DNA of 64,000 nucleotides, from positions 8,951,950 through 9,015,949 of the forward strand of contig NC_134026.1 of assembly GCF_964204645.1 (NCBI RefSeq). The letters run 5' to 3'. Made by a program: the position numbers and the translations under genes. The notes under the pieces are model-generated. The model searched no databases, had not been told where the DNA came from, and saw only the letters and a program-made list of their open reading frames with translations. The stretch's first letter is position 1, and each line of letters opens with the position of its first letter. Positions 20,313-58,272 of this stretch are shown piece by piece. This DNA is from Tubulanus polymorphus (lineage: Eukaryota > Animalia > Nemertea).

Positions 20313-20673
20313 CTGTAAATAATAATAGAACCTTTTAGCAGACTCGATGATTTGACAGCAGGTGCATCCCTTGCTCATTTTGAAGGTAAAATACCCTCTC
20401 ACGAGATAAAGTTTCTATTAGTAGTCACAGTGCTCTTCATTAAAAAAAGAACAATTCAATGTTAATACTTGAGTACCAATAGAGCCATTACGTTGTTTGA
20501 GAAATATTCAGTTTTAAAGGACCAGCAAATGTTTTGTTTGAGCAGTTTACTTTTACAGAGTTTGTTCAAAGTCTCTCCTAGATGTGAGAATACACAATGG
20601 AAGATCTTTTTTCGGCGGAGTGGAGACAAGTCAAAGATCTTGCAGCAATGTTTTTGTCACAGTGGAGGAACCA

Positions 20674-21580
20674 CCATGACTTGCAAAAGACCAGGACTTG
20701 GGACGGTTGAGATTACATGGACCAAGACTTGCAAAGGAAGAGAGTATGTGGACCATGACCTGCAAGGGAAGAGAGTACATGGACCATGACTTGCGAGCCA
20801 AAAATAAGTGACTTATGCCATCCCCAATGTGACGAACTTCTGGACACAGATTCAGGAGAGGGTTATCTGATTTTGTAGGAAGCATTTCTGAAGGCTGATT
20901 TGGAACAGCTACGGAAAGCGAAGTGACCGAGATCCTGATTCCATGGAGGTACACAAATGGCCGGCAGACGTGCAGAATCTAATTGATGGGTAACTACCGA
21001 TCAATCTAGTGCCATCACATATAATTTCTAAAACAATCGGTACAATCCGAAATTTTCTTTCTATGCATTATCCTGGATTCACGATTTCATATTCGACATT
21101 GCTACAAAGTGCCGAACGTTCTTTACACCAGAACTGACAAAGCAATATATATATATAAACATCAAATTTCCAATGGACCGTGACTTACTAAGGGTAGAGA
21201 GAACAAGGACCATAACTTGCAAAGGGAAGAAGGTACATAACTTGCAAAGGGAACATGGACCATGAATTGCACAGGAAGAGAGTACATGGACCACGACTTG
21301 TGAGGGAAGATAGTACATGGACCATGACTTGCAAAGGGAAGAGAGTACATGGACCATGACTTGCGAGGGGAGAGAGTACATGGACCATGACTTGCGAGGG
21401 AAGAGAGTACATGGACCACGACTTGCAAGGGATGAGAGTACATGGACCATGACTTGCACAGGAAGGGATTACATTGGCAATGACTTGCAAGGGGTGAGAG
21501 TACACGGACCATGACTTGGGAGGGAAGAGAGTACATGGAACATGATTTGTGAGGGAAGAGAGTACATGGACCATGACTTG
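20674..21580. repeat. 31-bp minisatellite in two blocks (20674-20796, 21172-21580)
   Basis: Unit CATGGACCATGACTTGCAAGGGAAGAGAGTA; blocks separated by an env-like fragment. Confidence 0.92.
20938..21172 (+). mobile_element. Gypsy env-like fragment
   Basis: Nucleotide homologue of 29893-30130 (LPINLVPSHIISKTIGTIR...YTRTDKAIYINIKFP). Confidence 0.6.
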
Positions 21581-22429
21581 CTGAAGAAGGTGTAGTTTCA
21601 TTTTCCGAAATTACTGTTTTATTAAAAACAAGCTATGGAACCTTATCAATTAAAAAAGCAAAACATCTATGGGATCATATAATTTTCGGGGATTATTTAA
21701 ATAGAGGGTTTTCAATGTTTGATAGACAAACTGTGGGGATTTCTTGGGCTTCTTAGGCAAAAAGAAACATAAGTATTAGTGCTGGGTATGATAGAAAATT
21801 AAGAGGAGTAGGTAAATTATTTACGTACAAAAGATTTCAATCATTGAGTTTGTCATTTTCTGATGAAGTTAAATATTTAAATGATATTGAAAAAATGTTT
21901 GAAAATAATTTCTGAAATTTAAGAATTCTGGTTGAAATTATAAATTTTATCATTGCAACGGGATTAAAAAATCTTCAGAACTTATTAAAAACAAAGTGAT
22001 CCACCAAGGCAGTGAGATTTCCTCCTTTATGAACATCTTCTCGCCTGGATAACATTGTTGAGGGTGTACGGAACAATCACACTCTCATCAGTAATATCAA
22101 GGAGAACCTGATCAATATTTCCGCATTTGCTGGATAGAATAGGGTAGAGTGAGTTCCTCAATTCTAGGGTCGAATCCCATTCATATTCAATCTCGGCAGG
22201 TCGTATCTGAGCATCATTGTGCACTATGTAATCATAATAATGATGTTTAATTTTTGTATAGCACTTAACAAAAGTGTCTCTCATGCACTTAGATGTTTAT
22301 CTTTACCATACGCAGCCTGGGGTATGGTCATCTTTCGGGTCCCACCATGAACCCAAAGTCGCAGGGGATTCTCCATTCCCTGAGGAGTATACTGCTGTTC
22401 TAATATTTGTTTCTTATTTTATTTTAAAG

Positions 22430-23380
22430 GTTACAGTATGTATAGAAGAAAATGACTAAGTGTCGGAGATATGGTTCAGGCGTTAGATGCTGATGATAGT
22501 GAACTGTCGGAACTTGATGATGGGAGTGATTCAGACGATGATGATTCTGATTTCGCTGTTATCATTAACAATCAGCATTCCCAGGACGATGACAATGATG
22601 GTGAAGATGATGAGCCGCTTGCTTATTTTGTTGGTACGCCTACCACGACCACTATCAACAGAAATCAGATGACGGTGAAATGGAAAAAAAAGAATTTGAA
22701 CCTTCAAATCATAACTTTACGGGTCCTGGCCTCACTCGTCCAGATGCTATAAAAACGCTGCTTGAGTATTTTAGACAATTTATTTGAGGTGACATGTTGT
22801 ATATGATAGTTGAGATGACAAATATGTATTCTTTACAAAAAAGGCAAGAATGCAAACATGAACAAAAAAGAGCTTGAGATGCTAATGGGACTGTTTTTAC
22901 GAATGGGGCTTATGATAATGCCCGGCGTACGGTCGTATTGGGAAATTGACACGCGCTGTTCCTTGAATGCAGATGTAATGAGCCGAGATCAGTTTAGGCT
23001 GCTGGTAACTGTATCACATTTTGTGGACAACGAATCGGTCACTGACGTAGTGAAGCGTGATTAAGTATGACCACGTAATAGGCCATGATAAGACCAGGAC
23101 TGAATAAAGTCAGGGAGCATTGCTTGGAGGTTGAACCAGGGAAAAAAATTTGATAGACGAAATGATGGTCGCTTTCAAGGGCAAATATAGCTCACTTAGA
23201 CAATATATCAAGAATAAACCCCATAAATGGGGTCTAAAAATTTTGGTACGCGCCAGTATTTCTGGAATTGTGTTAGACTTTGATGTCTATCAAGGTGCAG
23301 GAGGCGCTAAAGGTGAGCTAGGTGTAGGAGGTGACACTGTAGTGAAATTGTCAGAAACTCTGCCAAAGAACCAGAACTAT
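22430..23380 (+). mobile_element. piggyBac transposase pseudogene
   Basis: Acidic N-terminus, RSYWE, VMSRDQF, IDEMMVAFKGKYSSLRQYIKNKPHKWGLK...DFDVYQG; stops and frameshifts; 3'-truncated. Confidence 0.9.
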
Positions 23381-23398: not shown

Positions 23399-24270
23399 AG
23401 TTGTATTATAGTTGGTCATAAAAAAATAAAAAATAAATTCTCGCACGCACGAATTTATTTTTCATTTTTTACTCACCCGCCCTCTCCACCTTTAACCTGA
23501 ACCAACTATTATACAATTACTCTAATATTTTTATAAATGAATATTTTATATATGAATAACTTCTAAAATCAATTTTGATAAAAAATTTGATATTAAAATG
23601 GAAGCAAATAAGAAGTACTACTGTCCAACAGAACAAACACAAACCATCAATATTACAAATAATACTGGTGTTATAAATATATATCAGTAGACGTGTTGCA
23701 AATGTAAAATTAGTAAGCCATTTACAGATTATTATAAACGTAAGATTGGTAAAGATGGTTTACGACATAATTGTAAAACTTGTATTAAACTAAATACAAA
23801 GCAATATCGAGCAGATAATAGAGAACATTATAATGATTATATGACAGAATATATGAGAGAAAGATATCAAACAGATTTAAATTTTAAAATGAAAAGATGT
23901 CTAGGTAATAGATTATCACAATTTTCAGTAAAGAAAAGCATTCAGTTACACTATCTAATTTGTTGGGTTGTTCAGATGAATTCTTAAAATCATGGATTAT
24001 ATATCAGTTTGGCGATAAAATGAATATGAATAATTATGGTGATTATTTCCAGATTGATCATGTATTACCATTATCTAAATTTAACATGAACGATGAACAC
24101 AATCAGAAGTTAATATGGAATTGGAAGAATTTAAGACCTCTTGAAAAGATATGAGTAAATCTGACAAACTAGATTTACAGTTGTATTTAGATCAACTGGA
24201 TAAAGTAAAGACATTTGTTGAATTATGGAACAATAGTCCAAATAATGAGCCGTGTACTGAGACTTTAATC
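23399..24270 (+). mobile_element. Hairpin terminus plus fused zinc-finger start / HNH-type nuclease pseudogene of the hairpin-ended element family
   Basis: Partly deleted terminal hairpin (23399-23521), MEANKKYYCPT joined to EQTQTINIT..., then FQIDHVLPLSKF...WNWKNLRPLEK. Confidence 0.75.
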
Positions 24271-25415
24271 AGCGCTTAGAATAAGAGCTCGATAACACCC
24301 AGCCTATATAACTACTAGCTCTAGTTTGTTTATCAAAACACCTGTTGCCAGCGTTGCCATAGCGGCAGACGATGCCTGTTGAAACAGGACGTATTGCACC
24401 ATACTGAATCACCGCAGACATATACTGTTGAGACAGGATGCATTGCAACATACTGGATCGCCGCACCCGCACCTATCCGCGGCACCTATCTTTAGGTAAA
24501 GAAAATGTCATACTGATCAAGAAGTCAATTGTCTTTTGCAAGTCAAACACCGGAAAGTGAGGAACCAGAAACGATGGATGTTAACACACCATCTCAAGAG
24601 ACTGTAAAAGATATAGACGACAAAAATATCGAAAAGCTTAAAAAACATTTGGATTACTATAAACAATTAGTAACAATTGTGGACGAAATAATAACAACTA
24701 AACAATCAACGATTCGAGAATTGCCGAAAATACCAACTCCGAGTTTAAAAACATTATTAGGAATTAAAGACAATTGAAACATTGTTATCGAAACAAACAA
24801 ATCATCTTTGGGATTTTATAATCTTTGGGAATTAAAGGGTTTGTTCTTTATCATTCTATCCAAACTGTATCCAAACGGGGCTCTCGATCTAGGCTCCGGC
24901 TTGTCAGTTCGGCCATTTTGCAGCAGCAGGAGCAGTAATAAAGCGACAGCAGCAGTACAGAGCATACATTGAAACCTACAAAACTACGACTTGAACTACA
25001 ACTTCAATTCGGTCTAAGTGAGGACCTAAGACTATTCCCGACAAAACGTAGTATTAGCTTACATCTTCAAGAATGGGCTGATCTCAACTGGCATAGGGAT
25101 AAGTTTCGTCATCAATTCATTGCAAGTATTGCACCAAGTGTGGAGGGGTCTTTTCATCAACGGGGTATAGAGATTGCGACTAGCAGCACAAGCAGATTTG
25201 GTGAACACTGAGCTGGACGCCAAACAATTCCTTCAGGGTGAGGGTAAAGGTATAAAAGTCATAGATGCATAGGATTTCTCTCTCGAAACACAATTAGGAG
25301 TTACAGTTTACAGTTCTAAATGTAAGTACCGTTTTTGTTGTTATCAAGACGTCGGGAAAGGTGTTACTTAATATGTTTAAGTGCTGTAATTCATATTTGA
25401 CAACTTGAACAATTT

Positions 25416-26090
25416 GAAAATGTCATACTGATCAAGAAGTCAATTGTCTTTTGCAAGTCAAACACCCGAAAGTGAGGAACCAGAAACGATGGATATAAAC
25501 ACACCATCTCAAGAGACCGTAAAAGAGATAGACGACAAAAATATCGAAAAGCTTAAGAAACATTTAGATTACTATAAACAATTAGTAACAATTGAGGACG
25601 AAATAATAACAACTAAACAATCAACGATTCGAGAATTGCCGAAAATACCAACTCCGAGTTTAAAAACATTATTAGGAATTAAAGACACTAGAAGCACATT
25701 GAGTGGTTATGAACACCACGAATACTTGAAATCAAAATTAACGGATTATAGAGATTTGTCAAACTTTCAAGAAATAGATGCGCATTCATTTTCGGAAATT
25801 AGTGATTTATTAAAATCTGAGTATGAAACATTGTTATCGAAACAAATAAATCATCTTTGGGATTTTATAATCTTTGAGAATTAAAGGGTTTGTTCTTTTT
25901 CATTCTATCCAAACTGTAAATATTTCATGGACTACTTGGGTTAAATAAAATATATGTATTAGTGTTGAGTATGAACGAAAAATTAGAAGAATTGGAAAAT
26001 TATACTCCTTTAAAAAATTTCAATTATTGGGTTTGCCATTTGCTACCATTATTAGTCATTTGAATGAAAATGAAAAATTCTTTGAAAATT
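25416..26090 (+). pseudogene. Uncharacterised repeated ORF ('ORF A') of the hairpin-ended element family
   Basis: KLKKHLDY...LWDFIIF...YERKIRRIGKL; homologues at 21620-21940, 24499-24870, 34288-35037 and 50708-51365. Confidence 0.65.
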
Positions 26091-26769
26091 ACACCACATA
26101 AACTCACAGGTTGTCACAATGAAAAGGAAGATAAAACTGTTTCACAAGTAAGAAATTTGCCTGTGCTTCATTTGCTATTTTCTAACGCTGCTGATTTGAA
26201 GAAGACAAGAGGGAATGAGTTATCTAAAGCACCTATGATCGAGGTTCTTCCTCTTAAACTAAATAAAGAATCTTGGGATTTGGTTGCGTCTAAAAACACA
26301 AGAGTTTTGATAGACCATAAAAAACGTGCTTCACCGCATAAGTTTATTTGTCGATTTGTTGGCCTCTAAGGCTGACGCATCAAAAAGTGAGCTCACTAAA
26401 GAGAATCTGCGCATTATCATTTACCGTCACCTACTTCTAGGGTTATAATATCAGTTCCTACTATTCTAGGTATAACTGCGCTTGCTATTTTTAATATATA
26501 TTTTTTCATGATAAGGTATAATCCGGGGGCAAATTTTTTCTATAGCTGGCTTGTTTTATAGCATGGAATAAATTGTTTTGGGTTGTAGCGCTGTGCAGAT
26601 TTTCTTTTAGATATCTATGGAATTTCGATCGGGGACTATGGTTGATCAAGAACCAGATGGGGAACAGTTGCCAAATCCTGTGGACATCTCTTTTGTTTGA
26701 TCAACTACGCATTATTTAGATGGGGGGAACTTCTGCGGGTGCACTCTAAATGATTCCAAAACATATCTT

Positions 26770-26940
26770 ACCCCGTCAATTCATCTTCGGTGTACAAGAC
26801 ATTTTAAGAAAAATCTATATTCCAAATTAAGTAGCTTAGATTTGAGTTAAAACATTTCAAATGAAATCATTGATAGTATTTTTGGAAATGATGACGTTAA
26901 TGGATTAATTGAAGCAACCTCTCCAAAGGGTTGTGAGTTA
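26770..26940 (+). mobile_element. MULE transposase fragment
   Basis: HLRCTRHFKKNLYSKL...IIDSIFGNDDVNGLIEA (CxxH motif), same type as 62480-62890. Confidence 0.5.
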
Positions 26941-27219
26941 CGTTTTCTAGCTATCTGTTGGCTGGGATGAACTAGACCACTCAGAGAAATTTTCTGATTT
27001 CATAAAAATAATTTAACAATGATACACCAGGGACAGTGAAGATAAATCGTAAGAAGTCGTCAACCTTAGAGATTGACACTAGGCTCGTTGTACGAAAGGA
27101 GCCCCTAACCCTGGTGGCACGGAAGTGGAGCCACCAACGACGGCAGCAGTTGGGGTTGGCGGAACCTCCACCACCACCACCAGCAGCTCCAGAGAACATC
27201 GAACAACAGCCTCCGAGTG

Positions 27220-27650
27220 GCAAAAAATCGAACGCATTGACATACATACTTTCGAACTAAGTGATGACCTACGACTATTCCCGACGAAACGTGGTATTAG
27301 TTTACATCTTCAAGAATGGGTTAATCGCGACTGGCATAGGGATAAATTCCGCCATCAATTCATTGCAAGTATTGCGTGTGTGTTATTATTACTATCATTA
27401 TCATTAGTAATATCATTCTACCACCTCTCATTTTTAGATGACTCAAAGACAAATTGACAATTGAAAATTTTAATAGGTTCAGTAGAAGGTCAACCCCTGA
27501 GGGAAAGATTTCCTTGCGGTCAGTGCAGGGCAATACTTGCCCATAAAAGATCCCGATCACACCATGTGAGGCGCGTATGCACTAATTTCAAACCAATATG
27601 CACCAAGTGCGGAGGGGTCTTTTCGTCAATGGTGTATAGAGATCATCACT
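27220..27650 (+). pseudogene. PC4-like ssDNA-binding fragment followed by C2H2 zinc fingers (Maverick/Polinton-associated)
   Basis: RIDIHTFELSDDLRLFPTKRGISLHLQEW resembles the PC4 core; FPCGQCRAILAHKRSRSHH...CTKCGGVF. Copies at ~25010, ~28465; finger region also at 46030-46200 next to the packaging ATPase. Confidence 0.6.
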
Positions 27651-29892
27651 AGCAGCACCAGCAGCTCCAGTGAACACTGAGCTGGATGCCAAATAATTCC
27701 TTCAGGGTGAGGGTAAAGGTATAAGAGTCTGCCCCTGCACAATCAATGCGATCACGATCAGTCTCATCCTGTGCTAGAGAACTTTTTTTCAACAATCACA
27801 AGGATATTCTACGCTTCTGTGATATAGGGTACCAGGAATAAGGCCTATTCGAGGGCGCTCTCGATCTAGGCTCCGGCTTGTCAGTTCGGTCATTTTTCAG
27901 CAGCAGGAGCAGTAATAACGCGACAGCGGCAGTACACAGCATACATTGAAACCAACAAAACTACGACTTCAAACCTGTGCAACTTTTAAGATACTGGCTA
28001 AAATAAGTAATTGCCACAAGACTCTAACCACACCTATCTATTCCCAGTTAACCTGCCTGTTACCTTATCATTCTATGAGAATATGCCAATAAACCAGAAA
28101 CGGGAGCTTCTTGATCTGCAATCCAACTCATCCAAAATCCACCGGGTGGTACCACCCAATATCCAGATAAGAAAGGACAAGTGGGACAAAGTAGCCGACA
28201 CAAAGGAAAAATTACCGCCAGTTTTCGGAAAGTTTCTGTGAAAGGGCACAAAGATGTCGAACTCCTTGCCACAAAGGCAGAAGTGCTGATGTCATCTGGC
28301 CGCAAAATACAATAAAATTCATTTCTGGGTATACCTCAATCAGATCTAATAAGAAGAAGCGTGTGTGCAAACGGCTGTTAAACTGGACGAATCTAAAGAA
28401 CAATAGGAATATTTTAAAACGTATAAAGGCACCATGTCGGCAATTTAGTATTTGCATGTGTCAACGACTATTCCCGACGAAACGTGGTATTAGCTTACAT
28501 CTTCAAGATTGGGCTGATCTCCACTGGCATAGGCATAAGTTTCGCCATCAGTTCATTGCATGTGGGTTATTACTATTATTATTATCATTATCATTAATTA
28601 TATCATTCTATCTCCTTAAATTTTTAGATGATTCAACGACAAATTGATGAGAAACTTTTACTAGGTTCAGTAGCAGGTCTACCCATGAGGGAAAGATATA
28701 AAAGTTGCCCATAAAAGTTCACGATCACGCCATGTGAAGCGCATATGCACTAATTTCAAACCAATATGCACCAAGTGCGGAGGGGTCTTTTTGTCAACGG
28801 CGTTTAGAGATTGCGACTAGCAGCACCAGCAGATCTGGTGAACACTGAGCTGGACGCCAAACAATTCCTTCAGGGTGAGGATAAAGGTATAAAAGTCTGC
28901 CCTATTGCGCAATCAATGCGATTGCGGTCAGTCTCATCCTGTGCTAGAGAACTTTTTTTCAACAATCACAAGGATATTCTACGCTTCTGTGATATAGGGT
29001 ACCAGGAATAAGGCCTATTCGAGGGCGCTCTCGATCTAGGCTCCGGCTTGTCAGTTCGGTCATTTTTCAGCAGCAGGAGCAGTAATAACGCGACATAAGT
29101 CATAAACATAAGTCGTTATGTTTGTGCTTTGATTAGTAATTGCCACAAGACTTTAACCACACCTATCTATTCCCATCCAGTTAACCTGCCGGTTTCCTAA
29201 TCATTCTATGAGAATATGCCAATAAACTAGAAACGGAAGCTTCTGGATCAGCAATCCAACTCATCCAAAATCCACCAGGTGGTACTACAAATGTGAACTA
29301 ACTGAGGTATGTAACATTAACTCTATTACATAAATTGTCATGGTCATCTCTGCATTTATATTTGTTTCTCCTCTGTACTTGCAGGGAGATGTACCTCAGC
29401 CGGTCAAAGATTTGGCGCCAAAATATGATGAAAAATCTCCGGTAGCTGATACGCGAATTGCTCGGGGTTTGTACATTTTTTTTTTCAAACTTTGACATGA
29501 AATATGATTTGGAATCCGGTGTTTTTATTTCGAATTTCTCAGGCCATTTTCTTATTTTCACAGGTTTCAATCTCAAATGCTCATGACATGTTCTATCATG
29601 ATGGTGAATTTCAATATTTTCATATAATCTGATATATGATCTGCCTAAAAGAGGAAGGAACACAGATTTCAATCTTGAGAAAAAGGAACAACATTCCACT
29701 TGTGTCATGATGTAGCCTTTTGGCTATAAAACCCGGAGACATAGGAGCCTTTCTCGCTCTTTTGGCTCTCGTTCTCTCTCTGAGCTCTATAACTCTCTCA
29801 GTATTATATATAAATAAAACTTAACATTATCATAACATCGTTTGTATTTGGCATTCCTGGGCTAGGACTCTGTATCAACTCTGCACAGTACT

Positions 29893-30910
29893 CTATGGAG
29901 GTACACAAATGGCTAGCCGGCATGCAGAACCTAATTGATTGATGGGTATCTGTCGATCAATTCAGAACCATCGCACATAATTTCCAAAACAATCGGTACG
30001 ATCCGAGATCTTCTTTCGATACATTATCCTGGATACACGATTTCATATTCGAATCCAGGACATTAATATCAAACACAAAACGGTCTCTACACAAGAACTG
30101 ACAAGGCAGTATACATAATTGTCAAATTCCCGATATCCGAAACCAGTACCATTTTCAATGTTTATTCCATTTCTGCAATGCCTGTGCCGGTCAATGCGTC
30201 CTCCCACAATTGCACATTGATCAAAAACCACCCTGGCTATATCGGTGTATCCCAATCTGGTGATTTTTATACAGAATTTAATTCCAAAGAATTCTTACTG
30301 TGTGAAGGAAAGGGAATTGAAGTCTGCCCCACTGCACAATCACTGCGTTCACGAGCCGTGCCGTCGTGTGCCAGCGGACTGTTCTTTAATAATCACAAAC
30401 ACACCATGCAATTTTGTGATATAAGGAGTCAGGCTTGTTTGAAGCTCGACCTCGGTTCCAGGTCATACCTGGTAAGTGGATGAGAGGCCTCTTGGCCTGC
30501 CCTGGTAAACCTGCACAAGCCATCCTTTCTTGCCCCATGTGTCTGATACGATTGCCCGGCGGTTGCGGAATCACATTGGCCACTTCAAAATTCTCGCATA
30601 AATAAGTAGTTGTCATAATTCCACCACTACACCAATACACTCGAACCCTGTTAATCTCCCGGTGATATTATCATTCTTTAAACATATGACCCTCGACTGG
30701 AAGGGGAAACTTTTGGATCCTGCTACACACTCATTGAAAATACACCAGGTATTCTCCGAAATTAAACTCATTAGGGATAAATTGGAGAATGTAGCCCACG
30801 TAGACCGAGGATTCCAGACAGATTTTAATAAGATTGCCGCAAGAGGGCACAAGAAAGTAGAACTCTTCGCCAACCAGGATGGTGCACTGGCTGCCCCGCT
30901 GCTGAAGAAG
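29893..30910 (+). mobile_element. Gypsy env-like ORF3 (degenerate)
   Basis: Cys-patterned ectodomain (MPVPVNASSHNCTLI...PGYIGVS...CEGKGIEVCP...SCASGLF...C); homologous sequence at 40880-41260 lies downstream of the integrase-chromodomain stop and a splice acceptor (TTCTCTTACAG, ~40251). Related pieces at 27670-28160 and 28840-29280. Confidence 0.65.
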
Positions 30911-32130: not shown

Positions 32131-32896
32131 TTTTCCTTAGGGAAAGATTGGAGGCTAGTGAACAGTACATCCGAATTCTTGAGAGGAAAGTTTCTTACAT
32201 CAAGTACATTGTCCAAGCTATGTCATCTTTGTTTGTGCAGATTAACATGTTTAGGTTCTTTAAGGGATATAGAGCCAAAACAGCTCTTATATTCTTTTCA
32301 TTGATCTGTCATGGTGCCATTTACGCAACAGCATGTGAAAATGTACTACAAGCAGACACCATAACTGGAGAAAAGAGTCAACAAGTGTGGATACATATTA
32401 TGGATGAGGAACAATGTGTTAACATAGGATTACAGGCAGCCAGGAGACCTATACAATTTCATCTTGGAGAAGGACGGATAGCACAGGGAATAAAGTGTGA
32501 ATACCTGATACCAATGAAACTCCATCATATTGTTGTCTCTGAGTCAGCTTGCCCGGAGGAGAACCCAAGATATAGCACCATAGCCTCAGTATTTGTCACA
32601 CTGGAAGTGTGCTAAGGGGATGGGATAATGGATGCTATATTCTTGGAACTGGCCTCGTGGAAACCTGTGTCAACATAGCCAGCCACTCTAAAGAGGAGGC
32701 GAATTACGCCTGGGTTTATTCGATGAATCAGGTGGAGTTCGTCGCTGAATTAACAGTGGGAAAGGACTTGACTAAAAGCCATGCCACAATGATGGGAAAG
32801 GTTGAAGGACCTGGAGGATAAAAAATGGCACACTGTTAAAAAAACAGCTCTGGAATCTGGACATTTGAGGGAGAAGTTTGTAAAGTGATAGAGGGT
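32131..32896 (+). pseudogene. E: Endogenous flavi-like virus fragment: M C-terminus / signal sequence and N-terminal half of envelope glycoprotein E
   Basis: Hydrophobic KTALIFFSLICHGAIYA then Cys pattern C-x26-C...SESACP... and, after a frameshift, ICHTGSVLRGWDNGCYILGTGLVETC (32591-32668), matching the flavivirus fusion loop VCK...DRGWGNGCGLFGKG..VTC. Confidence 0.88.
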
Positions 32897-33260: not shown

Positions 33261-33269
33261 AGTATTAAA

Positions 33270-45509: not shown

Positions 45510-45960
45510 CTATCGCTGGGAAATATTCGTGTACGTAATCGACATTTTGTCCAAAGTTTGTGGTTTGAAATCGCAGAATAGATACCCACGTGGAGAAATT
45601 GAGGTGGCATCCCTAAAAGCTTCCTCGAGCGATTTGCCTAACCCGGGACTGCATCGCTTAAGTTTCACATGAAGTCTATACCTAGGATGCTTGAATAGAA
45701 CTATATAATGTATGTTTAATGATATAGTTCGGAAATGAGGTCCTCTTGGGAAAAGGGTTTGTGATATGAGAATCACTTGAAGTTTCCTGTGATGAATGCC
45801 ACGCATAAAAATAGTCTCCAATAATTTAGGGTCACACTCATTCAAGATATTGTCTAGAATAAGTAGTTTTGTTGTCTCGGAACACGCCAAACTTTCGTTA
45901 ACTAAGTTACTAACTATTACACCATCGATACGTTGATAATGCCAATCGTTTTTAAAGATT
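45510..45960 (-). pseudogene. Maverick/Polinton A32-like packaging ATPase, C-terminal part
   Basis: Degenerate Walker B LLILDN, FMRGIHHR...ILISQ.LF, RTISLNIHYIVLFKHPR, AFRDAT..PRGYLFCD. Confidence 0.85.
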
Positions 45961-48329: not shown

Positions 48330-49539
48330 TTCGCATCCAAAGAGTTTTAAGTAGATTGGGTGGGATAAAATGGTTTACCAGCATTCATGTTGTGCTGGAA
48401 AAAGACGTAGACGGTGTACCTCAGCACAGGACAGTCTTTTTTACAAGCCATACTCGAAGTGCCTTCAATGTAAATCAGTTTGATGAGCTCTTAGAACAGG
48501 CTAAGAATAAGATGGTTCAATTACTAGAACAACATAATACTGAGGGTACTGGTTGGAGGTTTGATCATGTAGTCGTTCTCGACCTTCATCTCGGCATGTA
48601 CCAACCATTGAGTGGGGGATCATATATACCCTCTCCTCGGGTGATCGTCGCTCGAGGTGGGGTAATAAACATTGTAAACTACGATGACAAATGCCTCCTT
48701 TGATCGGTTGTAGCCCAATTACACCATGTGGATACAAACCCCCAACAAGTAGTCAAGTATTAACGGTACAAGGACGAATTGAATATGAACAATATCAATT
48801 ATCCAATGACCGTAGAACAAATACCCATATTCGAACGGCTGAACAATATATCAATTAACGTATTTGCCTATGAAGATGGGAATATTTTTGTCGATGAAGA
48901 CAATACTCATTACTGTCTTATCAATAACTTGAGTAGATTTTTATCCCACCTGAATAAGAGAAAAGCTCAATGTTTTTGGTGTTTCAGATGTTTAAATTCC
49001 TTCATTACGCAGGTTAACCTGGACACACACTCGGTTCTGTATTCAAGGAATACAAAGGACAATCATGCCGTCGACAGATGAGAACATACACAAATTTGAA
49101 AATGTTGCAAAACAGCATCCGCTCCCCTATGTTATTTATGCTGATTTCGAAATGTTTTTGAAACCAATACAGGGGTGTAATTTGAATCGGGATCAATCTT
49201 GGACATATTGATATCAGGTTCATGAACCATGCGGATTTTGTTTTTAAAGTCGTTGGCCCTGACATCAGACATTCCCACCCGACAGTCCTATATAGAGGAG
49301 ACGATGTTATGAAGACGTTTCTATCATCTCTCCTCGAAAAAGCTGAGGAGATCTTGGAAGAATACAAACATCGCCAACCTTTGGTTATGAACGACGTCGG
49401 TGAAGCACACTTCAATTCTACTGATATTTGTCATATTTGTAAGAAAATTATAAATGAGAGGAAATGTCGGGATCATGATCATATAACCGGTAAATACAGA
49501 GACCCAGCTTGTAATTCGTGCAATCTAAGCTATCGGGTT
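48330..49539 (+). pseudogene. Protein-primed PolB N-terminal region, interrupted; continues at 56943-57085
   Basis: EGTGWRF...YQPLSGGSYIP, INIVNYDDKC, HYCLINNLSR, CFRCLNSF, VIYADFE, CHIC...RDHDHITGKYR..ACNSCNL; rejoined frame reads NLSYRV-PNFIPVLFHNLKSYDSH. Confidence 0.9.
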
Positions 49540-49897
49540 AGTAATAGGGATAATAGGCTTTCATACCAAAGGTCGAACGGTCGAGCTCATAAAAAATAAA
49601 AAATAAATTCTCGCACACTCATATTTATTTTTCATTTTTTACTCACTAGCCCTTTCAACCTTTGATATGAAAGCCTATTATCCCTATTACTCTTAAAATA
49701 TTCATTTACATGGATAAAATATAGGTATGAATTACATATAAAAGTAATTAGAAAAGTGGGGTTTCAAGCCAGAGGTCGGAGGTCGAGCTCACTTATAAAT
49801 AGATATATAGATATATTTTAAACATATTTCAATATTTATATTTGTATGAGTTAGATTTTTAAACATTAAAAGTGTTACTAAAGTGTGATTGAAATAA

Positions 49898-49991: not shown

Positions 49992-49994
<3 letters not shown>

Positions 49995-50707
49995 GATATA
50001 ATACATAGCATTTGCTTATACTAGAACATGATTCTATTTGAGCCTATATACATTTCATGTAAAGAGCTATGGAATAAATCTATAAATTCACAGCTGTCAC
50101 AGCTGTTACTATGACGCCGAGACATATGAGTCATAATACTGCAAACGCGTTAGATCATTCTAGAAATCGCACCGGAACTGAATAGATGATGCAACATAAC
50201 GCTTAGGATATTCTATCTCTCGAAACGCAATTAGGAGTTTATAGTTTACAATTCTAAATCTAAATGTAAGTACTGTTTTTTGTAGTTATTAGGGCTATTA
50301 AATATGAAACCTTTAGATATATTTAAGTGTATTTTGTATATCTTTTAGATAGCTAGAGTTACCATAACAGTAGACGGGGTTTATTGCGTAATAATTAATA
50401 GTTTCCGGTTTTTGAATTAAATGTAAGTACTGTTTTTTGTTGTTATTAAGAAGTCGGGAAAAGGGGTTACTAAATATGAAACCTTTAAGTGCATTTGACA
50501 ACTACAACTTCATACAGTTAATTCTATTTTACGTTAGATGGATAATAACTTGAACTATAATAAGTTATAATAATTAGAAACGATAGACTTGAAAATATTT
50601 ATATCATTTAATATCGTAGTTCCTGTTCTACCGCTGATATCTTTTAGTTGAATAAAATCAAGAAGTGATAGAGAACTCAAGATACTCCTTCTGAGGAATC
50701 AACAGCA

Positions 50708-51365
50708 ATGGAAGACGAACCAATGGAAATGGGCGCTGAAGTAAAAGAATCTCTAGATATAGACGACGAAACTTTAGAAGTTAAAAAACATTTAGATTAC
50801 CACCAAGAAATGACATTAATTTTTAAAAAAATAATAGAAAACCAGCAATCAAGCGTAACATCATTACCGAAAAGACCAACAACCAATGTAGAAATATTGT
50901 TAAGACTAAGAGGAACAAAAACTAAAAAGAAAATGAGTGGAAATGAGTTAAATAAGTTTTTAAAATCAAAATAATCAAATGAAACAGATGTAAGTTTTAA
51001 AGAAATAGAAGGTGTAACAACATTTAATGAAATAACTGTTTTATTGAAAAAAAAATTATTGAACCTTGTTATTTAAAAAAGCAAAGTATTTATGGGATTA
51101 TATCATTTTCGGGGATTATTTAAATTGGGGATTTTTAATGTTTAATAAACAAACTGCGGGGATTTCTTGGGCTTCTTGGGTTAAAAAATATATAAGTATT
51201 AGTGCCGGGCATGAAAGAAAATTAAGAAGCGTAGGGAGATTAATTACATATAAAAGATTCCAATTTTTAAGTTTGTCATTTTCTGATATAGTAAAATATT
51301 TAAACGATATTGAAAAAATGCTTGACAATGATCCAGAAATTGAAAAGTTCTGGTTGGAATTATAA
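50708..51365 (+). pseudogene. ORF A copy within the 7.4-kb element
   Basis: KKHLDYH...LWDYIIFGDYL...SWASWVKKYISISAGHERKLRSVGRL; function unknown. Confidence 0.65.
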
Positions 51366-52062
51366 ATCAAATGATGTATTAGTTGAAACTATAAATTTTG
51401 TCAATACAACGACCGAACATACTTGTATATGTATTGTGTAAATCTGCTTGGTGAATGTTCTATGTTCGGTCGTTTCAATTATGATTAGCGCATGCGCATT
51501 AAGCAAAAGCGCGCCTGTATGTGCGCTTTTGCCTAATGCGAACACATTTTGATATTTTATGTTCAGTCGTTTCTATTTGCATAATGAATATACAATTATG
51601 CGTTTGAATTTTCTATGATCGGTTGTTTCTATTTTACAGAATGAATATATAATTATGATTAGCGCATGCGCATTAAGCAAAAGCGCGCCTGTATGCGCGC
51701 TTTTGCCTAATGCGAACACGTTTTGATATTTTATGTTCAGTCGTTTCAAATATGATTAGCGCATTAAGCAAAAGCGCTCCTATAAGAGCGGTTTTGCCTA
51801 ATGCGAACACGTTTTGATATTTTATGTCGGTTGTTTCTATTTTACAGAATTTACAGAATGAATATATAATTATGATTAGCCCATGCGCATTAGGCAAAAG
51901 CGCGCCTGTATGCGCGCTTTTGCCCAGTGGTATGATTTAGATATCAAGGAACTGAAACGACTTATCAAAAGCAGCGAGGAATGAAAAAGGATGACGTTGG
52001 TCGAAGAAATGGAAGAGGATTCTAAAATATTAACCAATTTAGTAAAAAAATATGTATAATAA

Positions 52063-52735
52063 ATGGAACCAGAACAACCACAAACTATCAATATTACAAA
52101 TAACACTGGTGTTATAAATATATACTACAAGAAGTGTTCTAAGTGTGAATTAGATAAATTAGCTATAACAGAATTTAGTAAGCGTAAGATTAGCAAAGAT
52201 GGTTTTCAATATTGCTGTAAAACTTGTCTTAAACTATATACCAAACAATATCGGGAAGATAATAGAGAAGCTTATAATGATTATATGACAGAATATATGA
52301 GAGAAAGATATCAAACAGATCTTAATTTTAGATTGAAACAATGTTTAAGGACTAGATTAACACAATTATTCAACAAAGAAACACATTCAGAAACACTAAA
52401 CATCTAATTTGTTGGGTTGTACAGATAAATTTCTTAAATCATGGATAATATATCAATTAGATAGTCAAATGAATATAGATAATTATGGAGATTATTTTCA
52501 TATTGATCATACGTTACCGATATCTAAATTTAACATGAATGATGAATACAATAAAAAACTTATTTGGAATTGGAAAAATTTAAGACCTCTTGAAAAGAAA
52601 GAAAATTAAATAAAATTTAATACACTAGATTTACAGTTATATTTAGAACAGTTAACAAAGGCAAAGAAATTTATTGATCAATGGAACAATGATCCGAATA
52701 ATGAACAATACGTTGAATCTTTAATGAGTGGTTAA
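52063..52735 (+). pseudogene. CxxC + HNH-type endonuclease resembling those of large DNA viruses (frameshifted)
   Basis: KKCSKC...KDGFQYCCKTC, TDLNFRLKQCLRTRL, LGC, YFHIDHTLPISKF...WNWKNLRPLEKKEN. Confidence 0.75.
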
Positions 52736-53610
52736 AGATTAATATATCTCAAATAAAACATAATAAAAAAACAATAACTTCAACTATCCATTATTTCTAT
52801 TTGAATTTTTGATATTTTCTTTTACAATTCTTTTCAAAAGAGAATACTTTATATCACAAATAAAAAATACTAAAAAAACAATAACTAATACTAAAATTCT
52901 TTAACTGAACTAAGCTAGTATTAACCCAAAGAGATGCTAATATCATTTTATAATACTTATAATATTTTTTTCGCTTTTTTCTCTAATATAAATGTCAAAG
53001 AAATCGAGTAAGAATAATACCGATATTGAAAAAACATTAGATAATAAATGGATCAGTACCAAAAATCTTGATTATAGTTGTTTATTAGTTGATGTAGAGC
53101 CGTTTGAAAAACGGCAAATTCATCGTCTGCTAACCGCGTATATTGAAAACCGACTACTAGCGCCGCCGCCACAAAAGCGCAAATGTTTTTAATGTGATCG
53201 TGATTATTCAATATGGACTGAAATAATTCGGACAGGCGTTTTTCCTTCCTTTATTGATAATATATTGGGTTTCTAGAAGTAGGGCAAAATGTCAATTCGA
53301 AAGTAACGCCGTAGACAGAGAGCTGAGTTCTATTGTACTGCCGGGTAGCCCGGGGGTTGTTTAGGTTTTGGCTATGATAAGAAAATTGATAATTGACGTA
53401 TTTTTGTCAAGTAACCTAGCCTGAGGCCGTAGTGTCACACTGAGAGGCTTGATTGCGCATAGTAACTACAGGCGTCAATCTCGGGGATTCAGTATATTAA
53501 TTACCATACACGATGCCCGCGCGCAATTAGAATCTTATCAACGATGCGGTCTGTTTTGGTTAATCTAGTTCATATCTTTGCTGGTAGTCTTATGCTACAG
53601 ATGCAAAGAG

Positions 53611-55905
53611 GATGGCGGATGACTGAAGTCAAAATTCTACGCTCGCGAAAAAAGAGAAAAAACGAGTGATCGGAAAGAGATGTGCTGTTTGGGGATGCGG
53701 GAATACCAATGCTAATTCAGGATTGGGCATTCATGGTTTCCCAGATCGCGAGAAATCACCTGTGTGGTTTAAGTCATGGTGTAGCATTATCAAACACACT
53801 CGAGCAGATTTCACCTATACGAAAACCGGATCATTCGTATGTACGGACCACTTCGATGACGAGCAATGCAACCGAAAGAAATATAAAATGATGAAGGAAA
53901 TAAACCCGACTTGGTGATTTCAGTGGCTTCTCGAGCCAGGTGCTGTGCCATCCATTGCTAGAATGCCTAAGAAGCCAGTACACGGTGCTCCTGTTCCATC
54001 AACGTCATTAGCAGCGCGGCGGCAACGAGGGCCGGAATCAACTACTAAATCAGAAAATATGTCAAAACGGACAGCTGCCGAAAAAAGGACACGGAAAAGG
54101 GTAATTATCTTATTCTTAATGTTCGTTAATCTTTTTACCCTATTTCCATTTTTGTTTCTTTGTTTGATCAGGGTATTCTTTCATGTCCCGGCGCCGGTGT
54201 GACATTATCTGCCCAATAAATAAATTTGAATTTGACTTGACAAGCCACTCATGACTCAGTTGGCGGTCCCGGTGTAGTCTGAATATTGACCCCATAGGCA
54301 CATGTGGTTATGCCAGGGTAAACTTAGATAAGTGGTATGTGTATTTGAACAGCTTAGGAAGACTGAGTCGAGTGATATCAATTATCTAGGCCTACTTTCT
54401 ACAAAACAATTCAATCCAATTAAATTTATATCATCCGAGCAGTAGGCCTAAAACAAGTTTCACGATTCTGGAGGGTCCCCAAGCTACTACACACCCCATG
54501 GCCGAACTCCGTGCCAAAAAGAATGAATACTAATTGATATTCTGCTTATAATTTACATTTAGCGGGATTGAGAGTATGAATGATGAAGTCACTACTGATC
54601 CTCATTTGTGATTTCTCAGATTTTCTCAGTCTCGCTCTGTATCATTATGATTCCTTTGCTCAAAAGATGTTATGCATGTTGTATTTTGGCGCTACAACGT
54701 ATACGACAAGAGCCAATGCTGTCATTGATGATTTATGTCATGATCGATATTGAGTGATTTTTGATTGTCATACTTATTTCAGCTAGCCAATGATGCAATA
54801 TCAGACGATAGGTATGATGATAGAGAATTTCTTATGCATCAAGAGTCTGAAGCAGCTGAAGATGAAGGTGCTGGTGAAATCCATCATCAAGACCTTGATA
54901 CAGTACAGGTTAGTTTTGCTGCCCATATGATTGTCAATACTGAATTTTTCAAATGACTCCGACACAATTGGCTTATCAAAACCCATATCGAAATCAAGTT
55001 CGTACAATAAAAAATGCTGTTTTAACCCTAAAAGGACATTATCAGTAACCTCATTAAATAATTGAGGCCTACTATTATTTGTTTTGGCTGAGAAATGTAA
55101 ATCAATCGAAAATCTTATTTGTGTTATATTTTTAAGAAGTAGGCCCACTATAGGCCTATCACTCTTGGGTTGCAGTTTTAGCTGTCCGGTGAAGCCTTGA
55201 CAAAGCCTATGTAACGTGAATTAAATCATCTCTTTTTAGACCCACAGTAACAAGTCCGCTCAGGCAAACTTGAGGCCTCGACATAGATCGGCGGCCATTC
55301 AAGTGAATAGAAGACACAAAACGTTCGATAGAGGTATGTTCTAATGCTTTTATTCATTAGCAATGAGTTATGTTGATGTATTATATGGTAGTTATTGGGG
55401 TTTTTTTTCAATTATAGGGACTCAGAATGGTTCTCCGGTGATTGAAGTTCAAGAATCAGGATCATTGGATGTAGTCAATGCAGGTAAATAGACTCAGTTT
55501 CTCCTTTTGTGTTTGTGTGTTATCAGTCATACAAAATTATTCATTGAAGAGAATTTACTGATTCATGCCACATGAAGAATCCCTATAATAATTGTAGAGG
55601 CCCACTCAAATGTTGAAAAGCTTTTTTATTCAATGGAAGCAGTTATATTGATGTCAAACTATAGTAATGATTTGATACAATTACATGTCAAGGAGTTCAT
55701 ATTCAATTTTTTTTTTATTTATGAAGGAACCCAAACTGACAGTGAAGAGTTGTGGTTGTGAATGTGCTTGTGGATCAAAAAAACTAACCTGTAGTCGTAG
55801 ATCGTCCACCTCTGACATGGAAGACGAATATATCGATAACCCACATGATGTCGATTATACGCCAGATTCCGATAGTGAAGATGATGCAATAAGTGTCATC
55901 TATTG
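53611..55905 (+). mobile_element. Spliced THAP-domain gene fragment, probably the 5' part of a DNA transposon
   Basis: RCAVWGCGN...HGFP...W...VCTDHF...AVPSI (C2CH THAP with AVPS box); donor at ~54101, acidic exons at 54783-54908 and ~55728-55905; in-frame stop. Confidence 0.75.
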
Positions 55906-56704
55906 GTTTTGATTTAGTTAACTTATTATATTTTGTGTTAAAAACATGTAAAGTCATAAATATTATTTCATCAAATATTAAACCAGACCTTTCAAAATAT
56001 TTCTCTTCTATTTTATTTTTTACTTCATTATAACATTTATCTAATTTATCATCTATATGTTGTTTAGATATTATATGTTGTGAATGAGAATTTATATTAT
56101 ATATTGGTTTATCTTCAGATTTTATAAACTTTACTTTAACTGATATACTAATTTTAGAGTATTCAACATCAGTAATTATTTTTATAATATTTTTCATATT
56201 TTCTAAATGTTTTTTATTTTCTTCTAATGTTTTTCCTTTATGAAATTTAAACTCAATAGCTGCTGGACCAATATCACTTTTAAATGCTTCGTTATCTCTA
56301 TATCTTTTTTTATTATCTAATGAATTAATATAATTTCTTACATCTTCCATGTATGGTCTTTTATTGTTTAATTTATTTCTTATTCTTTTAATTGTCTCAT
56401 GTTTCTTATCATTATCAAAAAAATCTTCACCTAAAATATCATTATTCATATTTCTAATATGACTTTTAGATTTTAAATGTTCATTATAATATCTTTTATC
56501 ACTGAATGATTGATTACATGTATCACATTTGTATGTTTCTTTTTCATTCTTTAATTCATCTAATTTAGTTTCTAATATATCATCTTCATATTCTAGTTTC
56601 AATTTATTCTCTAAATGTGTTTTAGTTTTATTGTGTCTTGCTTTTTGAGATTTATCTATATTGATATTACATGTTGGACAGTAGTACTTCTTATTTGCTT
56701 CCAT
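55906..56704 (-). pseudogene. Zinc-finger N-terminus of a PolB-type ORF, truncated
   Basis: YYCPTC...HNKTKTH, YKCDTCNQSF...HLKSKSH, ERSGLIFDEIIFMTLHVF (same motif class as EGTGWRF at 48540); starts just inside the right hairpin. Confidence 0.7.
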
Positions 56705-58272
56705 TTTAATATCAAATTTTTTTTTTTAATTGATTTTAGAAGTTATTCATTTATATGTTATTCATATATATGAATATTTTAAGAGTAATAGGGGAAATAG
56801 GGGTTCAGGTTAAAGGTTGAAGGGGCGAGTGAGTAAAAAATGAAAAATAAATTCGAGTGTGCGAGAATTTATTTTTTCATTTTTTATGAGCTCGACCGTT
56901 CGACCTTTGGCCTGAACCCCTATTTCCCCTATTACTCGGGTTCCTAATTTCATACCTGTGTTATTCCATAACTTGAAGAGTTATGACAGTCATGAAATTA
57001 TTAGATCGTTGGGCTTGGTTGAATTTCGGGGGTATAAAATTTCAATGATCCCAACAAATACTGAAAAGTTTATCGGATTTTGGTTGGTGGTTAGTATGGC
57101 TTGTTATATTATTGTGGTTAATAATGGGTATTCTGCTTTTCCAGAGCCTTATTTCACCTTATTACACCTATTTTGAGTTACGGAAGTGAGATTTGGTGTC
57201 ATTTTTCCATGTCTAAGTTATGTAACGATAACTTCATGGACGTCTGTCATAAAGTAATTGGGGAGAAGGTCTTACTCAAATTAGGTAGATACCTCCTATC
57301 TGCCGTCAGAGGTGAATTGGGCCAATTACATAAATTTATGTACTGCTAGGAGGGAGGAGTTGCTTGTTAAAGTTCCCCTCCAGCAGAAAGCCTTGTACAC
57401 TAATTAAACTGCCGTGTTGGGCGGTTTCTTTTTTAGTTGTCTTGTCTTGTAAGTACACATAGTATGTTCATTGACATGTATTGCCCATTTGTATTTGTAT
57501 CCTAAGGTATCAAAAAATGAATTGAATTGTCTGACAGATGATGGCCTTTTATACTTGAACTCGGCCATGAACAACACTAATACACTTCGTACGTAGATCC
57601 AAACACGGCAAATTCCAAAAGCAGAGAGAGACTTGGATAAATGAAGAAAAATGCATAATAGGATCACGAAACGTTGACACATTGGTACCATGTATGAAAT
57701 TTCTGCATGAAATACAGCTAAATATAATAACTATGCTTGAAAGCACACTCGTAGTTTGAAATAGAACAGGGATCATTCATTTATTACGTATGCATGAAAT
57801 TTGACTTTCTCTACCATGTATGCAAAATCGGCCATTTTTTCATATACATTAAGCATTACAGTACACAATTGCACTTACCCCTCCACTAATGCGTACGTGA
57901 ATGAATTAATTATCCCACAATAATGAGATGATTATCATATCGTATGAGCAACGATTTTGATATAGATGTATATTGTCCTACTTTATTGTATATGTTGATT
58001 AGATTGTATTATATGGAAGCCCCGATACGACAACCAAATTACAGATAACGACTTACACAAATTAAAGATAACAACCCACACTTTAGAAATCCAATTTTAC
58101 GAGTTATGTTAACGATTACCCACCACCATGAACTCCCTACATTTTGTCAGTGCGGGCGAGGTCAAAGTTTTATATAATTACAGGAAGTGGTTATTTTGCG
58201 GGATATACGGTTATGGTCCACAAAAAGTTATCTAGTGAGCTGTTCACTGTTGTTGTTGGAATCTCTCATCGC

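What the first reader, a model, noticed from the sequence alone, without database searches (positions are those of the whole stretch)
20600..57100. Strand-biased TE/virus mosaic: candidate uni-strand piRNA cluster, possibly inside DNAJC21 intron 1
Seen: repeat density jumps right after the last DNAJC21 exon found (acceptor at 20313); piggyBac, env, gag/pol, MULE, PolB, HNH, PC4, THAP and all viral pieces read on plus, with few minus exceptions (22.0-22.4 kb, 45.2-47.1 kb, 55.9-56.7 kb). The DNAJC21 exon encoding the J-domain start was not found up to 64000. Inference: a minus-strand transcript, perhaps the DNAJC21 pre-mRNA itself, would be antisense to nearly every fragment, as in flamenco-type clusters, giving heritable anti-TE and antiviral small RNAs from a housekeeping-gene intron.
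Basis: inference. Interest (0 to 1): 0.78.

Follow-up and report, generated by a model that had tools for sequence, protein, structure and literature searches.

The report
One-way virus graveyard inside worm gene
In a ribbon-worm genome, what is likely the first intron of the housekeeping gene DNAJC21 is packed with broken pieces of transposons and of a flavivirus that nearly all point against the gene, a layout that would let the locus make small silencing RNAs, although that role is untested.

Summary
The window's DNAJC21 exons match a named Tubulanus polymorphus (nemertean) protein, whose first 36 residues are absent from all 64 kb, so intron 1 is likely over 43 kb; the 14 other introns are 90-719 nt. 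From 20.7 kb on, 54% of the DNA is recognisable mobile or viral sequence, against 0% in the gene body. 27 of 29 strand-assigned fragments read on plus, antisense to DNAJC21; collapsed to putatively independent blocks it is 16 of 19 (p=0.004 against 50:50, but 0.08-0.26 against the 2-3:1 antisense bias ordinary introns can show). The mosaic holds Polinton, env-carrying gypsy, piggyBac and THAP pieces and flavivirus-like E and NS5 fragments joined to gypsy sequence; DNA contigs of two samples hold the E piece. Best reading (0.5): a flamenco/Aedes-type one-strand piRNA trap read from the minus strand, through an unspliced or separately started transcript rather than the excised intron. No small-RNA or stranded data were reachable, so function is unproven; intronic selection plus local duplication remains a strong rival (0.3). 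The flavivirus fossil in a nemertean is the firmest new fact.

The parts
14643..20312 (-). DNAJC21 coding exons 2 to last (residues 37-535 of P0003), 14 introns of 90-719 nt
   Evidence: tblastn of P0003, exon blocks identical; 14 CT..AC joints in run X4, 5 of them in X5; Pfam DnaJ, ZUO1-like, zf-C2H2_jaz
20184..20312 (-). DNAJC21 exon 2 (second half of the J domain), phase-1 acceptor
   Evidence: sequence; Pfam DnaJ positions 32-63 of 63; 100% to P0003
20313..64000 (-). inferred DNAJC21 intron 1, at least 43.7 kb, open at the window end
   Evidence: residues 1-36 absent from the window; 85 of 88 full-length homologues carry this N-terminal part; exon 1 itself not located
20689..21590 (.). 31-bp tandem arrays with an env/LTR-element piece (20940-21174, plus) between them
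21598..21909 (+). ORF-B family fragment (unassigned gene; further copies 24517-24832, 25432-26089, 34384-35034, 50711-51362)
   Evidence: tblastn; strand from GT..AG joints 50265-50349 and 50422-50648 upstream of the 50.7-kb copy in run X4, possibly from a paralogue
22230..22400 (-). SINE/L2-like tail (minus-strand exception)
   Evidence: by eye from the sequence; no call confirmed it
22819..23380 (+). piggyBac transposase fragment
   Evidence: Pfam DDE_Tnp_1_7, E 1e-9 and 3e-9
23416..24250 (+). Polinton end sequence followed by HNH endonuclease fragment
   Evidence: PHROG endonuclease VII/HNH; tblastn to L002 HNH frame; self-BLAST
24877..29293 (+). duplicated chimeric units of PC4, zinc-finger and env pieces (27271-28155 versus 28464-29288, 83% alike)
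   Evidence: Pfam PC4 E 2.7e-6
30067..30900 (+). env fragment of baculovirus-F type (env-carrying gypsy); further copy 40960-41279
   Evidence: Pfam Baculo_F E 1.4e-7
32200..32950 (+). flavivirus-like envelope (E) fragment with fusion-loop region, broken, directly after a gypsy LTR/gag start
   Evidence: PDB E proteins, best E 5.8e-5, 118 sequences at E<=5; Pfam Flavi_glycoprot E 0.0019, under its cut-off; contigs of X1 (31629-32990) and X2 (32070-32919)
32961..35034 (+). Polinton piece: end sequence, HNH start, polymerase C-terminal part, ORF-B
   Evidence: 84% to L001 large ORF; relatives carry rve integrase and A32 ATPase; L006 large ORF is a DNA polymerase
35320..36520 (+). unassigned broken frames, likely RNA-virus derived
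   Evidence: CpG o/e 0.36 and 59% purine, like E (0.28) and NS5 (0.25); no homologue found; contigs of X1, X3 and spliced run X4
36927..37690 (+). flavivirus-like NS5 polymerase fragment, broken, abutting gypsy integrase
   Evidence: Pfam Flavi_NS5 E 4.3e-9, above cut-off, upstream part E 0.019; PDB NS5 E 3.6e-6; X1 contig 35295-37727
37691..40200 (+). gypsy integrase C-terminus, LTR, gag start, protease-RT
   Evidence: Pfam Integrase_p58_C, SH3_Tf2-1, RVT_1
42116..43930 (+). duplicate of the 31.1-32.1 kb chimeric unit followed by gypsy gag
   Evidence: self-BLAST 76%; gag start matches the start upstream of the RT frame
45543..45902 (-). Polinton packaging-ATPase fragment (exception)
   Evidence: tblastn to L007 frame, E 7e-6, which hits Pox_A32
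48335..49545 (+). second Polinton polymerase, N-terminal half with endonuclease VII motif
   Evidence: tblastn to L006, E 1e-46; Pfam Endonuclease_7
50200..53190 (+). ORF-B with spliced leader, hairpin repeats, HNH endonuclease
53627..53914 (+). THAP-domain transposon fragment
   Evidence: Pfam THAP E 1.6e-9
55895..56940 (-). Polinton polymerase N-terminal part with inverted end sequence (exception)
   Evidence: 63% to L003, E 2e-85
56937..57125 (+). Polinton polymerase middle piece
   Evidence: tblastn to L006, E 1e-8

Best explanation
The stretch is a dense pile of short transposon, Polinton and flavivirus fragments lying antisense to DNAJC21, inside what is likely its first intron, and it likely acts as a one-strand piRNA source locus. 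Inferred mechanism: fragments land here (the flavivirus pieces likely as cDNA made by gypsy reverse transcriptase, since both abut gypsy sequence); a minus-strand transcript, started at the DNAJC21 promoter but not spliced to exon 2, or started at a promoter of its own beyond 57-64 kb, would be exported and cut into 1U piRNAs antisense to Polinton, gypsy, piggyBac, THAP and virus mRNAs; selection keeps antisense pieces and internal duplication multiplies them. Shown: content, orientation, gene strand, absence of exon 1, genomic presence. Inferred: intron status, transcript, piRNAs, silencing.
For: 27 of 29 fragments and 92% of assigned bp on plus; 16 of 19 collapsed blocks, p=0.004; bias holds across unrelated kinds (DNA transposons, Polinton genes, gypsy, RNA virus). 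Sharp edge about 380 nt from the acceptor and 54% versus 0% mobile DNA; other introns 90-719 nt. Non-retroviral RNA-virus pieces fused to LTR-element sequence on one coding strand (contigs in 26, 40) are the layout of the proven Aedes cluster (PMC7161354, abstract) and of mosquito core clusters (10.1101/2022.08.22.504762, passages); internal duplications were called typical of cluster EVEs in PMC9752770 (passage). The trapped Polinton family is very abundant in DNA run X1 (summed contig depth 10^4-7x10^4 against about 40; not a copy number) and ORF-B has spliced sense contigs in X4, so plausible targets exist. Contigs of spliced run X4 cover unique mosaic sequence (35436-36520, 0-1 differences). 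Nemerteans have piwi genes (PMC7764242, start of abstract).
Against: No small-RNA or stranded data. Collapsed bias is not significant against 2:1 (p=0.08) or 3:1 (p=0.26) nulls, and one vote per family and strand gives 11 of 13, p=0.02, or 0.06 with the SINE. X4 also has contigs over ordinary DNAJC21 intron sequence (15740-16313), so its mosaic contigs may be plain pre-mRNA or DNA carry-over. Minus-strand (sense) exceptions lie at 45, 56 and 60 kb, toward the presumed 5' end, whereas flam-like clusters tolerate them toward the 3' end (PMC10643416, passage). The minus strand is only slightly U-rich (32.5% U, 29.9% A). Content is Polinton-rich, not gypsy-dominated.
Confidence: 0.5

Rival explanations
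1. Ordinary expanded intron: insertions accumulate in intron 1, sense-oriented ones are purged because their splice and polyadenylation signals disturb an essential gene, and local duplications inflate the same-strand count; no special piRNA output.
For: Intronic ERVs show a 2-4-fold antisense bias in vertebrates (PMC1794541, passages); the collapsed 16 of 19 fits 2:1-4:1; chimeric junctions are duplicated inside the region; RNA contigs fit pre-mRNA.
Against: The minus strand still carries 40 AATAAA hexamers against 53 on plus, so polyadenylation-signal avoidance is not evident; DNA transposon and RNA-virus coding pieces, which carry no LTR signals, are biased too; the 14 other introns are short and show no repeat in self-BLAST; RNA-virus fossils are rare outside clusters in Aedes (10.1101/2022.08.22.504762, passages).
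Confidence: 0.3
2. One reading: the normal DNAJC21 pre-mRNA is the precursor, and the excised intron is routed into piRNA processing.
For: The mosaic ends just before the acceptor and is antisense to the gene; a ubiquitously expressed host would give piRNAs in all tissues (inference).
Against: piRNAs came from exons but not introns of the hamster cluster host gene C12orf45 (PMC11615739, passage); in Drosophila, insertions in exons work because the chimeric transcript is exported (PMC13226689, abstract).
Confidence: 0.08
3. The region is not one intron: exon 1 lies elsewhere because of a misjoin further out or a wrong gene model, and the mosaic is intergenic.
For: Exon 1 could not be located; no contig spans the mosaic; run X1 may be the sample behind the assembly, and the second sample's contig at the edge (20287-20634, X4) stops before the first repeat.
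Against: P0003 is an NCBI gene model on one 31.9-Mb contig; X1 bridges 19726-20790 without differences and is present in all 60 bins from 14.5 to 54.3 kb.
Confidence: 0.07
4. A silenced transposon graveyard or dual-strand cluster whose apparent strand bias is chance plus duplication of a few founder pieces.
For: Family-level vote is only borderline; Polinton genes occur on both strands.
Against: p=0.004 after collapsing duplicates; 47 of 51 repeat pairs are same-strand.
Confidence: 0.05

Closest known systems
Aedes aegypti flamenco-like EVE cluster and mosquito core piRNA clusters (PMC7161354, abstract and outline; 10.1101/2022.08.22.504762, passages)
   Same: TE-EVE hybrids on one coding strand; flavivirus-derived pieces; location tied to a host gene; predicted antisense transcript
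   Different: Those are intergenic or downstream read-through loci with piRNAs shown; this one lies upstream of exon 2, likely in intron 1, in a nemertean, and has no small-RNA data
Drosophila flamenco and flam-like uni-strand clusters (PMC10643416, passages)
   Same: dense fragments, strong strand bias, env-carrying gypsy present
   Different: flam-like bias is driven by gypsy elements and loci are hundreds of kb; here Polinton, DNA-transposon and virus pieces dominate, sense exceptions sit toward the presumed 5' end
Mammalian piC-DoG clusters and Drosophila genic Tirant insertions (PMC11615739, passages; PMC13226689, abstract and passages)
   Same: host-gene promoter would drive an antisense precursor; human piC-1 (TMEM181) variants include intronic space
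   Different: piRNAs there come from exons and 3' read-through; here the cargo is 5' of almost the whole coding sequence
Endogenous flavivirid elements (PMC9752770, passages including most of Table 2)
   Same: broken E- and NS5-like pieces fixed in an invertebrate genome
   Different: no nemertean host in the part of the table I saw; lineage of this virus not placed
Polinton/Maverick elements
   Same: polymerase with endonuclease VII motif, HNH, A32 ATPase, end repeats; relatives L002 and L007 carry rve integrase
   Different: only fragments here; no integrase or capsid piece identified in the window

Membership tests
uni-strand piRNA cluster (flamenco/Aedes type) | high density of transposon fragments over tens of kb | tested here: met
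   54% of 36.5 kb versus 0% in the gene body
uni-strand piRNA cluster (flamenco/Aedes type) | fragments predominantly on one strand | tested here: met
   27 of 29 fragments; 16 of 19 blocks, p=0.004 against 50:50
uni-strand piRNA cluster (flamenco/Aedes type) | bias beyond what host-gene introns show anyway | tested here: inconclusive
   p=0.08-0.46 against 2:1-4:1 nulls taken from vertebrate data; no genome for a species-specific control
uni-strand piRNA cluster (flamenco/Aedes type) | long single-stranded precursor antisense to the fragments | tested here: inconclusive
   host gene is on minus; unstranded contigs of a spliced run cover parts of the mosaic
uni-strand piRNA cluster (flamenco/Aedes type) | uniquely mapping 25-32 nt, 1U, phased piRNAs from one strand | not testable with these tools
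   only contig-level runs were served
flam-like cluster in the strict Drosophila sense | strand bias driven by gypsy enrichment | tested here: not met
   gypsy/env pieces are present and on plus, but Polinton, piggyBac, THAP and virus pieces share the bias
read-through (piC-DoG) cluster | lies downstream of the host gene's last exon | tested here: not met
   lies upstream of DNAJC21 exon 2 on the gene's strand; a different gene beyond 64 kb could not be examined
endogenous flavivirid element | homology to flavivirus proteins | tested here: met
   NS5 above Pfam cut-off, PDB NS5 and E matches
endogenous flavivirid element | integrated in host DNA, joined to host flanks, broken frames | tested here: met
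   X1 contigs bridge E to both flanks and NS5 to gypsy (37 letters beyond the junction); second sample holds the E piece; stops and frameshifts seen
endogenous flavivirid element | phylogenetic placement in a named lineage | not tested
   no close relatives were returned to build a tree

The most novel reading that the evidence does not exclude
A nemertean has turned the first intron of an essential housekeeping gene into a heritable immune archive: transcripts from the DNAJC21 promoter that skip splicing to exon 2 feed piRNAs against Polintons, gypsy elements and a marine flavivirus, giving EVE-based antiviral memory outside arthropods and a third way, besides own promoter and 3' read-through, to drive a one-strand cluster.
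Probability: 0.25. Interest if true: 0.8.

Novelty: new variant of a known kind. Interest (0 to 1): 0.55.

Why it matters
If piRNAs are confirmed, this would be an EVE-bearing one-strand cluster in a lophotrochozoan and would make directly testable whether Aedes-style antiviral memory exists outside arthropods and whether intron-1 transcripts of a host gene can serve as precursors. Independently of that, the E and NS5 fragments record a flavivirus-like infection of ribbon worms; my searches found no such record (1 paper with both words, unrelated by its title and abstract start; the visible part of Table 2 of PMC9752770), but subscription papers and supplements were not seen.

Tried and rejected
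No whole genome is held, so no genome-wide control and no exon-1 position. Run search: no RNA holder on record; this is no evidence either way. Bins without X4 or X5 cover inside the mosaic are not used. 300 of 331 short frames (38-59 aa) scanned against Pfam gave one weak unrelated hit; the 31 left out were 4 in the AT microsatellite and 27 beyond 60.2 kb. Viral-contig scans for polymerase, ATPase and NS5 relatives found none. NS5 search among proteins of 224-2000 aa found none (polyproteins are longer). The 35826-36275 frame: no homologue, one repeat-protein hit judged spurious, Atlas scores at most 0.80, fold pLDDT 35; neighbours gave only chance PDB matches, so my impression that the block continues the envelope gene is recalled motif spacing, unconfirmed. 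ORF-B: no Pfam, PHROG or Atlas assignment. PDB gave nothing for the L002 polymerase or for 32040-32900 in one frame. Rejected: exon 1 close to 20.3 kb (no joint from 20312 among the rows listed, 26 weaker rows not shown); polyadenylation-signal depletion on minus; long minus-strand frames over the 31-bp and 48-bp arrays as genes (tandem repeats).
Full report
Host gene and organism. The exon at 20184-20312 (minus) encodes the second half of a J domain (Pfam DnaJ 32-63 of 63). Its best full-length match is P0003, named by its source 'dnaJ homolog subfamily C member 21-like [Tubulanus polymorphus]', XP_074641526.1, on a 31.9-Mb contig; the window's exon blocks reproduce residues 37-535, so the window is from this ribbon worm or a very close relative. 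Spliced run X4 shows 14 joints with CT..AC ends, fixing the gene on minus; introns are 90-719 nt, median 288. Residues 1-36 are missing: tblastn finds nothing, no exact 5-residue word occurs in six frames, and the N-termini of 55 homologues give only chance hits, although 85 of 88 full-length homologues have this part. Intron 1 is therefore inferred to exceed 43.7 kb. Exon 1 itself was not seen; no genome is held.

Is the jump real? Self-BLAST cover rises from 0-6% to up to 85% per 2 kb at 20 kb. Recognisable mobile or viral DNA covers 54% of 20.6-57.1 kb, 0% of the gene body, 5% of 1-14.6 kb and 18% of 57.1-64 kb; it starts at 20689. A contig of unspliced run X1 spans 19726-20790 with no differing letter, and X1 covers all 60 bins from 14.5 to 54.3 kb. 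X1 may be the sample behind the assembly, the second sample's edge contig (20287-20634) stops short of the first repeat, and no record spans the mosaic, so a misjoin further out is not excluded.

What the pieces are. Pfam on all 181 stop-free frames of 60 aa or more in 20.3-57.2 kb: piggyBac (two), HNH, PC4, a C2HC finger, baculovirus-F env, flavivirus E (weak), flavivirus NS5, gypsy integrase end, RT (two), endonuclease VII and THAP on plus (13 of 98 plus frames); one C2H2 frame on minus (1 of 83); three weak hits set aside. PHROGs (86 frames) added HNH/endonuclease calls at 23691, 33093, 49186 and 52063, all plus. A metagenome scan returned 27 loci; L002 and L007 carry a 1,300-1,400-aa frame, integrase and A32 ATPase, and L006's large frame is a DNA polymerase, which marks them as Polinton-type (family features from established knowledge). 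Their proteins map to 33272-33940 (+, 84%), 48335-49545 (+), 56937-57125 (+), the three HNH copies (+), 45543-45902 (-, ATPase) and 55895-56704 (-, polymerase N-terminus). ORF-B, five copies, has no family; its strand rests on two GT..AG joints in X4.

The virus pieces. 32576-32818 matches the fusion-loop region of flavivirus E (best E 5.8e-5). 36927-37690 is collinear with flavivirus NS5. Both are broken by stops and frameshifts. E follows a gypsy LTR/gag start; NS5 runs into a gypsy integrase end. X1 contigs bridge 31629-32990 and 35295-37727; X2 (second sample) holds 32070-32919 and X3 holds 35295-35948, so these are inherited genomic sequences. The block 35320-36520 shares their CpG depletion and purine excess but found no homologue; it is not counted as a separate fragment in the strand tallies.

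Strand bias. 27 of 29 assigned fragments, 12,771 of 13,941 bp, are plus (p=2e-6; 8e-6 with the by-eye SINE). These are not independent: 24501-24784 and 25416-25701 are 96% alike, and chimeric junctions recur at 76-83% (27271-28155 and 28464-29288; 31099-31662 and 42116-42783). Collapsed by hand to putatively independent blocks, 16 of 19 are plus (p=0.004; interval 0.60-0.97; includes the weakly supported MULE block and the by-eye SINE). One vote per family and strand gives 11 of 13 (p=0.02). The bias is real against 50:50 but not distinguishable from a 2:1 (p=0.08), 3:1 (0.26) or 4:1 (0.46) intronic bias, the range reported for vertebrate intronic retroviruses (PMC1794541, passages). Against that rival, the minus strand keeps 40 AATAAA hexamers versus 53 on plus, and pieces without LTR signals are biased too.

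RNA evidence. X4 and X5 are spliced. X4 has contigs on unique mosaic sequence (35436-36520, 30465-30768, 27682-28059, 41529-41740) and on an ordinary DNAJC21 intron (15740-16313). Contigs give neither strand nor level, so this shows presence only and fits pre-mRNA as well as a cluster transcript. No minus-strand joint inside the mosaic was among the rows listed.

Mechanism. Most likely (0.5) this is a trap locus of the flamenco/Aedes kind: TE-EVE hybrids on one coding strand read by one antisense transcript (PMC7161354, abstract), with EVEs concentrated antisense in clusters driven by host-gene promoters (10.1101/2022.08.22.504762, passages). An unspliced or early-ended isoform, or an internal promoter, is therefore needed; human piC-1 variants that include intronic space are a precedent (same passages). 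The ordinary-intron rival keeps 0.3. Against the cluster reading, sense exceptions lie toward the presumed 5' end, opposite to flam-like loci, and the bias is not gypsy-driven (PMC10643416, passages).

Novelty. One-strand transposon piles recur in this scan (12 earlier findings hold the words, 8 shown, all with the piRNA role unproven; one notes many such pieces in one genome; AI notes, not support). What sets this one apart is a defined host gene and strand, the likely intron-1 position and flavivirus fossils in a nemertean. Searches for a nemertean flavivirus or EVE (passages of PMC9752770 and PMC11097642), for nemertean piRNA work (12 of 26 listed, listings only) and for intronic EVE clusters showed no such report; subscription papers and supplementary tables were not seen and may hold one.

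Verdict. Observation confirmed; interpretation partly supported; new variant of a known kind, function unproven; interest 0.55.

Noticed in passing
window 1900-10200, minus: Exons of a second minus-strand gene, likely SERAC1-like (name recalled from a motif seen in a translation; no call confirmed it), with an L2-like tail and a long ATT/AACTATT microsatellite at 8.9-9.7 kb.
   Followed up: no
window 11500-13232, minus: Non-LTR reverse transcriptase remnant between the two genes (Pfam RVT_1 E 6e-16).
   Followed up: no
window 19660-19770: Short, very abundant repeat in DNAJC21 intron 2, present in many contigs of all four runs laid; probably a MITE.
   Followed up: no
window 21598-21909, 24517-26089, 34384-35034, 50200-51362: ORF-B: an unassigned gene family that travels with Polinton HNH and polymerase pieces, has a spliced leader (GT..AG joints in X4) and no match in Pfam, PHROGs or the Atlas; it did not match the fetched Polinton relatives either.
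   Followed up: partly
window 23133-24460, 32429-34400, 49009-53656: One Polinton family gives summed contig depths hundreds to over a thousand times single-copy level in DNA run X1, suggesting a large expansion in this genome; close relatives (75-88% in the polymerase) occur in metagenome contigs L001-L005.
   Followed up: partly
window 35320-36520, plus: Unassigned frames with RNA-virus-like CpG depletion and a basic cleavage-like motif, on one contig with the NS5 piece; the longest exact contig of spliced run X4 inside the mosaic lies here.
   Followed up: partly
window 51477-51924: Three to four copies of a roughly 57-nt self-complementary-looking repeat between ORF-B and HNH; a similar short stretch follows ORF-B at about 35220-35270 by eye.
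   Followed up: no
window 31433-31626, 42508-42747: 48-bp tandem arrays inside an unassigned element with four same-orientation copies (31289, 42307, 44624, 44965).
   Followed up: no
window 57100-64000: Sparser zone with a Penelope-type GIY-YIG piece on minus (60251), a Mutator transposase on plus (61229) and a MULE-like frame on plus (62355, by eye); base skews fall to near zero here, so a promoter or cluster edge may lie in it.
   Followed up: partly
window 14-20 kb versus 20-57 kb: GC skew switches from -0.10 in the DNAJC21 body to +0.07 in the mosaic, AT skew from -0.01 to +0.04, consistent with plus-strand coding fragments.
   Followed up: partly
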